Assembly (NCBI GenBank): GCA_030838075.1
Contig: JAUTXJ010000013.1
Location: 1 to 50,495 of the forward strand
Source of the DNA: Acidobacteriaceae bacterium
GTDB lineage: Bacteria > Acidobacteriota > Terriglobia > Acidiferrales > UBA7541
Length of the DNA stretch: 50,495 nt
Direction: 5' to 3'
Part shown: positions 42,331 to 43,550 of the stretch, in pieces
How the letters are laid out: every line of letters starts with the position of its first letter
How positions within the stretch are numbered: position 1 is the first letter of the stretch
Notes under the pieces: model-generated
Databases searched by the model: none
What the model saw: only the letters and a program-made list of their open reading frames with translations
Told to the model about the DNA's origin: nothing
Translations under genes and position numbers: made by a program

Positions 42331-42409
42331 CACGCCTCGAACCACAAACAAGTTGTAGCCGTTGTTTGCAGTGCGCTATCGTGGCACCCGGGTCGCATAG
42401 CGGAGGTTC

Positions 42410-43237
42410 ATGATGACATCGTCTATAACTTCGTGTGTCTTATGTACTCGTAGAGACATTCTCAAAGCGAGCGGAGCACTGCTTTTGCCGCTCGCAATTC
42501 CTGGCGCGATTCGTGCTCTCGGCGCTCAATCCACCGCGAACGGTGGAACCGATCCATATCCAATTCCCTGGCTTGATAAAAACGGCAGTCACAATCAGCC
42601 CGCGGCCCTCAACCTCGAACCGTCACACATTTATCATTTCAAGGGGCGGGTGGCCCGCTGCAGCACATTCACTGGGATGGGCACGGATAACAAAGGAAAT
42701 CGAATCGCTTTCGGCAGCGCTACGACCGATTACGGCGTGATGCAGGGCGAGTATTGGGCCGCGCGGGCAACGCAACAAGGGGCCTTCACACACATTTGAC
42801 TCACTCTATTTCAGGGACAGGCTGTCCCTGCCAATCAGATTCATGACTTTCATCCTCCCATCTCGCCATCAGGACTTTACTGGGTTGTTGCGGTTCCCGA
42901 TGGTGGAGCGAAATTCAGTTTCGATGGTAATACCTGCACAGTAGAGATGCGCGACGTCGCAGTCGTGGATCAACCGCGCTGGCCGGCGCTCGACTCGGTA
43001 GCCACTCCGGCACGGATGAGCTTCAAGATCATTTGGAAATCGAATGGACAGACCGTGCGCTATGACGACGCTTCGCGGCATTTCCGCTTTTCTGGCACAG
43101 CGGCGACCTGCCAACTGGAAGCACAAGTCGAAGTGCCCCCCGCGGGTTTTTCGTGGAAGTCCGATCCACTCGAAACCTCCAAATGTGACTTTGCCATCAT
43201 CGGCGACGAAACAAACGGACGCTATTACGATAGCTAG
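42410..43237 (+). CDS. Tat-signal protein of unknown family with in-frame TGA at codon 130 (candidate selenoprotein, 275 aa)
   Basis: GGAGG RBS, TRRDILK motif. After TGA 42797-42799 the frame stays open (LTLFQGQAVPANQIHDFHPPISPSGLYWVV...) and runs into ORF 42947..43237. Confidence 0.72.
42812..42830 (+). promoter_or_regulatory. Candidate bacterial SECIS element
   Basis: CAGGGACA-GGC-TGTCCCTG, a perfect 8-bp stem with a GG-starting loop, 12 nt after the TGA. Confidence 0.68.
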
Positions 43238-43428: not shown

Positions 43429-43517
43429 AATTGTCGGCCCTCTGACATTTCTGCGGCCGACATTTCGCGCAATTGTCGACACGCCGACATTTTGTGCAAT
43501 TGTCGGCGCGTCGACAT
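43429..43517. repeat. Array of imperfect palindromes AATTGTCG-N-GACAT
   Basis: Copies start at 43429, 43471 and 43498, plus a half-site CCGACATTT at 43457. Confidence 0.75.
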
Positions 43518-43550
43518 CCACTGTTCGAACGGCGCCGCATGTTCGCGGAT

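What the first reader, a model, noticed from the sequence alone, without database searches (positions are those of the whole stretch)
42410..43237. Candidate new selenoprotein family: exported protein hidden by an in-frame TGA with a SECIS-like hairpin
Seen: the 129-aa ORF ends GAFTHI-TGA, yet the same frame stays open for a further 145 codons of protein-like sequence to TAG at 43235-43237. The downstream ATG (42947) has no strong RBS. A perfect stem CAGGGACA/TGTCCCTG with loop GGC begins 12 nt after the TGA. Known: bacterial Sec insertion needs a stem-loop just 3' of UGA with G at the start of the apical loop. The context (FTHI-U-LTLF, beta-strand-like, no CxxU/UxxC) matches no selenoprotein family I recognise, and the protein has a Tat signal. 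Inference: a 275-aa exported selenoprotein, or other programmed UGA readthrough, that annotation pipelines split in two. Novelty cannot be confirmed without a search.
Basis: partly seen in the sequence, partly recalled or inferred. Interest (0 to 1): 0.9.

Follow-up and report, generated by a model that had tools for sequence, protein, structure and literature searches.

The report
Hidden exported beta-barrel selenoprotein family
Two "hypothetical" ORFs are split by a TGA codon that is kept in nearly every relative across several soil-bacterial phyla and is very likely read as selenocysteine, giving one likely exported protein predicted to fold as a beta-barrel, which would be a large selenoprotein family missing from the catalogues checked and almost without the usual cysteine versions.

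Summary
Observation confirmed; interpretation supported. TGA 42797-42799 is in frame in a 275-codon gene.
- Codon: 168 of 169 distinct homologous loci keep TGA here; 1 has TGG. 81 of 163 of these genes also end in TGA, so this is not a code change.
- Hairpin: a SECIS-type stem-loop follows in 89 of 107 distinct sequences, against 14% and 18% in controls, with compensatory changes.
- Machinery: this genome has selA, selB and tRNA-Sec. 47 of 50 tested hosts have selA or selB. 8 of 80 genome loci lie beside sel genes.
- Fold: the joined protein models as one beta-barrel (pLDDT 96) with no clear structural relative.
- Cys versions are rare: 2 of 44 database domains spanning the site, and both lost the invariant Asp146.
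No match in Pfam, NCBIfam or a 2026 inventory. Sec insertion is inferred, not shown; the chemistry is a hypothesis. The scan probably found this family before on another genome (e1-8163770; identity untested).

The parts
42402..42406 (+). Shine-Dalgarno-like GGAGG; spacing favours ATG 42413 over 42410
   Evidence: sequence; choice of start is inference
42410..43237 (+). Whole gene, 275 codons (274 from the second ATG) when TGA130 is read through
   Evidence: homologs
42410..42523 (+). Predicted Tat signal peptide (TRRDILK at residues 13-19, 42446-42466); cleavage site approximate
   Evidence: weak PF10518 match; RR pattern in 150 of 163 loci
42542..43234 (+). Mature domain (residues 45-275), predicted single beta-barrel built from both halves
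   Evidence: AlphaFold2 pLDDT 96.1, pTM 0.91; fold searches
42728..42730 (+). Asp107, invariant; predicted cross-strand neighbour of residue 130
   Evidence: 79 of 79; register inferred from strand limits
42797..42799 (+). In-frame TGA, codon 130, predicted selenocysteine, in the middle of predicted strand 120-134
   Evidence: 168 of 169 distinct loci TGA
42812..42830 (+). SECIS-type hairpin: 8-bp stem, 3-nt loop GGC starting 20 nt after the UGA
   Evidence: model from PMC13188914 Fig. 2 legend
42836..42847 (+). Gln143-x-His145-Asp146 motif, invariant in TGA members; Asp146 mostly lost when the TGA is lost
42881..42883 (+). Trp158, invariant in TGA members
   Evidence: 79 of 79

Best explanation
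This is one gene whose conserved in-frame UGA is very likely decoded as selenocysteine by the ordinary SelB/tRNA-Sec system through the hairpin just downstream, giving a protein predicted to be Tat-exported and to fold as a single beta-barrel, with Sec130 likely serving as a metal ligand in an active site. Shown: conserved TGA, conserved compensated hairpin, Sec machinery in most hosts, recurrent adjacency to sel genes, no known family. Inferred: Sec insertion (about 0.9), Tat export, and the barrel. Hypothesis (about 0.4 given Sec): the selenolate sits between Asp107 and Asp146 on neighbouring strands, with His145, Gln143, Trp158 and Asp187 nearby, and binds a metal loaded before Tat export. 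No second Cys is conserved, so a thioredoxin-type cycle is unlikely. An acidic extracytoplasmic space, where a thiol (pKa 8.3) is protonated but a selenol (pKa 5.2) largely is not, would explain why Cys rarely substitutes; host habitat pH was not measured.
For: Codon: 80 of 80 metagenome loci (best 80 of 473 confirmed), 80 of 80 GTDB loci found with C-half patterns that do not include the codon (best 80 of 160), 23 of 23 full-length matches among 56 handles, and 7 of 8 spanning matches in a Chloroflexota draw. After removing duplicates, 168 of 169. Same gene ends in TGA in 81 of 163. Hairpin: 89 of 107 pass versus 14% at other codons and 18% after synonymous recoding; loop starts 20 nt after UGA in 66 of 89; loop opens GG or GU in 74 of 89. 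Fixed-register pairing is 75% versus 37-53% when slid, in 92 unselected sequences. In 48 rows picked for the same register it is 84.9%, with 62 double changes versus 23 shuffled. Machinery: own selA, selB, tRNA-Sec; selA or selB in 47 of 50 non-acidobacterial hosts. Adjacency to selA, selB, selD or tRNA-Sec in 8 of 80 GTDB loci, 3 of 80 metagenome loci, and G608. Structure. Asp146 is kept in 79 of 79 TGA members but only 4 of 20 non-Trp sense-codon domains. pKa values: PMC10779653 passages.
Against: No experimental evidence of Sec. The window's own hairpin is not unusual alone, and 18 of 107 sequences fail my hairpin test (cut-off -5 kcal/mol on the bare stem, looser than the review's -7.5 MFE). 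The host test is weak where Sec is common: selB in 47 of 56 in the own clade set, selA in 188 of 251 Chloroflexota. Only the Actinomycetes background is low (83 of 301), and that draw held only one family member besides the seed. G399 and G385 gave only selD and G002 (62% complete) nothing clear. Own selD is only a fragment at a contig end. Full-length natural proteins carry Ser, Gly, Arg, Glu, Phe, Lys, Leu, Cys or Trp at the site, so the fold tolerates other residues. I had no model coordinates; the active-site geometry rests on strand register and a noisy mutual-information list. No fold match or operon points to a substrate.
Confidence: 0.88

Rival explanations
1. Sec is inserted, but the protein is a metal-free enzyme using Sec130 as nucleophile with His145/Asp146 (hydrolase, lyase or dehalogenase type), or a peroxide or electrophile scavenger. 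This differs from the best explanation only in chemistry.
For: His145 is kept in 20 of 20 non-Trp sense-codon domains and Asp146 covaries with the site. Barrel enzymes such as CghA and Fsa2 are among the tied fold matches (Z 8.7 and 8.2, rmsd 5.6-5.8, 128-135 aligned).
Against: The fold matches are tied with unrelated barrels at 4-10% identity. Tat export usually means a folded, often cofactor-loaded cargo (established knowledge).
Confidence: 0.4
2. Programmed UGA readthrough with a standard residue (Trp, or Cys through a UCA-anticodon tRNA-Cys) rather than Sec.
For: 24 of 44 spanning database domains show Trp; one genuine TGG locus exists; hairpins can stimulate readthrough (recalled).
Against: If Trp sufficed, TGG should be common, yet it is 1 of 169 and degenerate. 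The loop position and G match the bSECIS model. Genes recur beside sel genes. The own UCA tRNA scores as tRNA-Sec and ends GCCA.
Confidence: 0.05
3. Two proteins: the TGA is a real stop and the C-half is re-initiated, the halves assembling in trans; or the short form is the main product and readthrough is a selenium-sensing switch.
For: Databases hold mostly halves. ATG, GTG or TTG stands in the first two codons after the site in 15 of 169 loci. Termination competes with Sec insertion in general (PMC4513850, abstract opening seen in listing).
Against: 154 of 169 loci have no such start there. The stop is always TGA, never TAA or TAG, while terminal stops use all three. The site is mid-strand in one barrel. 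The C-half has no signal peptide. Natural fused versions exist.
Confidence: 0.05
4. Nonsense mutation, sequencing error or genome-wide TGA reassignment.
For: Only the look of a single locus.
Against: TGA in 168 of 169 loci across phyla; TGA also ends 81 of 163 of these genes and 364 of 1088 long frames in G000; other runs read the same letters.
Confidence: 0.01

Closest known systems
Canonical bacterial selenoprotein genes (UGA plus in-frame bSECIS read by SelB; model E. coli fdhF; consensus in PMC13188914 Fig. 2)
   Same: In-frame UGA; hairpin within the coding region; 3-nt loop opening with G, 20 nt from UGA; 8-bp stem; fold energy -12.9 kcal/mol; hosts with selA, selB, tRNA-Sec.
   Different: No Rfam SECIS model matches. 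The protein is unrelated to FDH or any listed family.
Listed prokaryotic selenoprotein families (PMC13188914 Table 1, 119 families or subfamilies by its text; NCBIfam selenoprotein models)
   Same: One predicted Sec at a highly conserved site; some listed families are also cell-envelope proteins (outer-membrane barrel GSU2204, substrate-binding SaoB and SaoX).
   Different: No NCBIfam or Pfam domain match for 98 of 98 aligned members apart from a Tat signal in 2. No CxxU, UxxC or CU motif and no conserved Cys. [quoted passage not shown]
Beta-barrels such as NspA, OmpW, PagL, CghA/Fsa2 pericyclases, AttH-like NE1406
   Same: Same general barrel arrangement: Z 7-9, rmsd 3-6 A, about 120-140 aligned.
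   Different: Rows are tied, 2-10% identity, no Foldseek match at E <= 0.001, no sequence match below E 0.02. A shared architecture only; no function transfers.

Membership tests
Bacterial selenoprotein gene (SelB/SECIS) | Conserved in-frame UGA with coding conservation on both sides | tested here: met
   168 of 169 distinct loci; 166 of 169 open for 130 or more codons after the site
Bacterial selenoprotein gene (SelB/SECIS) | bSECIS: 3-9 nt loop, G in first two positions, 16-37 nt from UGA, 4-16 bp stem, MFE <= -7.5 | tested here: met
   Window element meets all; family 89 of 107 by my own looser energy cut-off; covariation
Bacterial selenoprotein gene (SelB/SECIS) | Host encodes selA, selB, selC, selD | tested here: met
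   G000: selA, selB, tRNA-Sec over cut-off; selD only a 3' fragment at a contig end. Hosts 47 of 50 and 21 of 23
Bacterial selenoprotein gene (SelB/SECIS) | Restricted to Sec-positive genomes | tested here: inconclusive
   Three incomplete or unrated MAGs lack the core genes; background is high in two of three groups
Bacterial selenoprotein gene (SelB/SECIS) | Abundant Cys-containing homologs (usual correlate, used by prediction pipelines) | tested here: not met
   0 of 169 loci, 2 of 44 spanning database domains, both without Asp146. Only the best 120-150 rows of each search were seen, so more may exist
Bacterial selenoprotein gene (SelB/SECIS) | Selenium found in the protein | not testable with these tools
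   needs 75Se or mass spectrometry
Thioredoxin-fold and CxxU/UxxC selenoproteins | Redox motif with a second Cys; Trx fold | tested here: not met
   no Cys column at 85% conservation or more besides the site; nearly all-beta model; no family match
Any listed prokaryotic selenoprotein family | Match to its Pfam or NCBIfam model | tested here: not met
   a few listed families have only CDD or PANTHER ids, which were not scanned
Tat substrate | N-terminal twin-arginine motif and hydrophobic stretch | tested here: inconclusive
   TRRDILK present; PF10518 below cut-off; 6 of 13 members weakly match; RR pattern in 150 of 163; export untested
Known barrel families (OmpW/NspA, pericyclase, AttH) | Clear structural or sequence homology | tested here: inconclusive
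   tied Z 7-9; no significant Foldseek or HMM match

The most novel reading that the evidence does not exclude
A large, effectively Sec-only family of exported beta-barrel selenoenzymes in soil bacteria, where loss of Sec goes with collapse of the active site rather than Cys substitution. It would be a counter-example to the view that every selenoprotein has working Cys homologs, and a sign that Cys-filtered pipelines miss a whole class of extracytoplasmic selenium chemistry.
Probability: 0.55. Interest if true: 0.88.

Novelty: new variant of a known kind. Interest (0 to 1): 0.8.

Why it matters
The decoding looks ordinary, but the protein does not. It is widespread: 2,141 clusters at 50% identity, halves counted separately, in Acidobacteriota, Chloroflexota, Actinomycetota, Dormibacterota and others. 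It is annotated as truncated hypothetical proteins, for example RefSeq WP_428534895.1, 153 aa, ending at the site (its DNA not seen). It has no redox motif and almost no Cys versions. deep-Sep's authors write that all known selenoproteins now seem to have Cys homologs and that their filter may drop those without (PMC12013277 passages). This family makes the open question of why Sec is kept instead of Cys directly testable: natural Sec, Cys, Ser and Trp variants exist on one scaffold.

Tried and rejected
Family and fold searches: Pfam and NCBIfam gave only a weak Tat signal. PDB sequence searches gave nothing credible. Foldseek gave no match at E <= 0.001 with either model, and VIA-align only tied generic barrels. 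Rfam gave no SECIS match. Language-model look-alikes in the ESM Atlas remain unexamined.
Neighbourhood: clustering 2,894 ORFs from 182 loci showed no conserved operon apart from sel genes and generic families. The upstream ferritin-like gene recurs only in the closest relatives.
Coevolution: the first script failed. The rerun is mostly phylogenetic noise, and its 130-146 pair restates, so it is not independent.
Expression: one metatranscriptome holds contigs of relatives, but none bridges the TGA with 31 or more letters on each side, and contigs cannot show transcription.
Host test: the own-phylum draw gave only 5 of 301 hosts and the Actinomycetes draw 2 of 301, too few for a formal test.
Literature: searches found no description of this family. 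The BSepDB supplement as held lists genome accessions only and was cut. The BSepDB website, the groundwater-MAG candidates of Deng et al. (cited in PMC13188914) and the supplements of bioRxiv 2026.09.15.751765 could not be seen and might contain members.
Rejected: pseudogene or error, genome-wide recoding, obligatory Trp, two-gene coupling, thioredoxin-like chemistry.

Full report
Observation. The coordinates, the open frame after TGA 42797-42799 and the hairpin 42812-42830 are as described. The hairpin alone is not unusual (z -0.62; 47 of 200 shuffles as good), so the case rests on homologs. A named relative of the C-half at 73% identity is from an Acidobacteria MAG (P0313).

The codon. Of the first 120 database homologs listed, most end at the site, and the full-length ones mostly show Trp. 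DNA resolves this. TGA stands at the site in 80 of 80 metagenome loci (best 80 of 473 confirmed) and in 23 of 23 full-length matches among 56 genome handles. It also stands in 80 of 80 GTDB loci, found with C-half patterns that do not include the codon and titled Acidobacteriota, Chloroflexota, Actinomycetota, Dormibacterota, Eisenbacteria and a delta proteobacterium (best 80 of 160; two rows, L146 and L219, are from unpublished G359 and G404). In a Chloroflexota draw, 7 of 8 spanning matches had TGA and one had TGG. After removing duplicates and the two unpublished rows, the count is 168 TGA and 1 TGG of 169, never TAA or TAG. 81 of the 163 genes with a recognisable end also terminate in TGA, and G000 uses TGA after 364 of 1,088 long frames. 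So the readthrough is site-specific.

The hairpin. [quoted passage not shown] My test used that geometry with a stem of 5 bp or more and -5 kcal/mol or lower. It passed 89 of 107 distinct sequences (one row from unpublished G359), against 14% at other codons of the same genes and 18% after synonymous recoding; the median z against recoding was -2.0. The loop begins 20 nt after UGA in 66 of 89 and opens GG or GU in 74. At a fixed register, 92 unselected sequences pair at 75% versus 37-53% when slid. In 48 rows that I picked for sharing the register, 84.9% of cells pair, with 62 double changes against 23 in shuffles (that selection and kinship inflate the contrast).

The machinery. G000 has selA, selB and tRNA-Sec over their cut-offs; selD is only a 3' fragment at a contig end in an 83%-complete assembly. 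I tested the genomes behind 50 of the 80 GTDB loci, all non-acidobacterial. selA was over cut-off in 44, selB in 39, and either in 47 (45 of 48 without the two unpublished genomes). Of the other three, G381 has tRNA-Sec and selD, while G385 and G399 gave only selD. Among 23 TGA-bearing handles, 21 have selB; G003 has tRNA-Sec and selD, and G002 (62% complete) nothing clear. Backgrounds limit this test: selB in 47 of 56 in that set, selA in 188 of 251 Chloroflexota and 83 of 301 Actinomycetes (these tallies include 1, 3 and 4 unpublished genomes). All 7 Chloroflexota hosts and both Actinomycetes hosts in those draws have selA, each count including its seed genome.

Gene adjacency is more telling. 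selA, selB, selD or tRNA-Sec lie within the fetched flanks of 8 of 80 GTDB loci (L152, L158, L161, L163, L186, L188, L206, L207), 3 of 80 metagenome loci, and G608. About 1% per locus would be expected by a rough count of mine. Several of these loci are kin, so perhaps five or six independent cases. The window's own gene has no such neighbour, and no other operon recurs.

The protein. With a 98-row alignment, residues 45-275 (Cys modelled for Sec) give pLDDT 96.1 and pTM 0.91. The N-half supplies strands 77-93, 98-101 and 107-117, residue 130 is mid-strand 120-134, and the C-half supplies the rest. Fold searches give only tied barrels (best Z 9.2, rmsd 4.3, 141 aligned). In 79 non-redundant TGA members, D107, Q143, H145, D146, W158 and G89 are invariant, D187 is kept in 78 and N269 in 77; no other Cys is conserved. 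Strand limits put D107 opposite residue 130. Mutual information suggests D146 on the other side, but that list is noisy and I had no coordinates.

Sense-codon versions. Among 384 database proteins held, 44 domains span the site: W 24, S 9 (five from one cluster), G 3, C 2, R 2, and E, F, K, L one each. D146 is kept in 21 of 24 W forms but only 4 of 20 others, and both Cys forms lost it. Most W forms are probably TGA read under another code (mixed-length cluster; inference). The one real TGG locus shows D107T, W158G and no hairpin in register. I have no DNA for the other sense-codon proteins.

Mechanism. Most likely SelB bound to the hairpin inserts Sec at codon 130 (about 0.9), and the folded barrel leaves by Tat (inference). 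I commit to a Sec-Asp-Asp-His metal site (about 0.4 given Sec), with a metal-free nucleophilic enzyme as a close rival. The pKa gap, 5.2 versus 8.3 (PMC10779653 passages), could explain the lack of Cys versions outside the cytoplasm in acid soils; this is a hypothesis, and pH was not examined.

Known and new. It works like any SelB/SECIS gene and meets the sequence criteria. It is not a member of any listed family by Pfam, NCBIfam 20.0 or the review's Table 1. Seven searches found no description; unseen candidate lists could hold it. An earlier scan note on another genome (e1-8163770) describes what is probably the same family. My reading was fixed before I saw it, the sequence look-up found nothing, and it is not independent support.

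Verdict. A real feature and a new variant of a known kind; interest 0.8.

Noticed in passing
window:41043-42224 (+): Upstream 393-aa Tat-signal protein with a Ferritin_2 domain; recurs next to the gene only in the closest relatives.
   Followed up: partly
window:42295-42332: GC-rich stem-loop with a GTAA loop and a T run after the upstream gene, terminator-like by eye; not flagged by the scan. Suggests the selenoprotein gene is transcribed separately.
   Followed up: no
window:43320-43365 and 43430-43520: An 18-bp unit repeated about 2.4 times with TTCGAA palindromes, then several TGTCGG/CCGACA-type short inverted repeats, between the gene and the convergent DUF302 gene.
   Followed up: no
L126:3695-3772; L215:6168-6245: ARAGORN calls a 'tRNA-Stop (tta)' near the family gene; may be a false call or a pseudo-tRNA.
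   Followed up: no
L206:1631-3691: A metallo-beta-lactamase-fold hydrolase-like ORF (motif recognised from memory) and a Cys-type selD lie directly upstream of the family gene in G399, where selA, selB and tRNA-Sec were not found.
   Followed up: partly
P0164: A 547-aa protein with two tandem barrel domains carrying Lys and Arg at the Sec position and lacking Asp146.
   Followed up: no
L168, L181, L213, L222, L224 and others (8 of 169 loci): The codon after the TGA is ATG in one subgroup, which could allow re-initiation there.
   Followed up: no
L032, L033 (P0126): A subfamily with a signal peptide lacking an obvious twin-arginine consensus and with a long C-terminal tail, and with the hairpin about 5 nt further from the TGA.
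   Followed up: no
L177/L211, L173/L205, L189/L220, L232/L238: Several genomes carry two paralogs, both with TGA.
   Followed up: no
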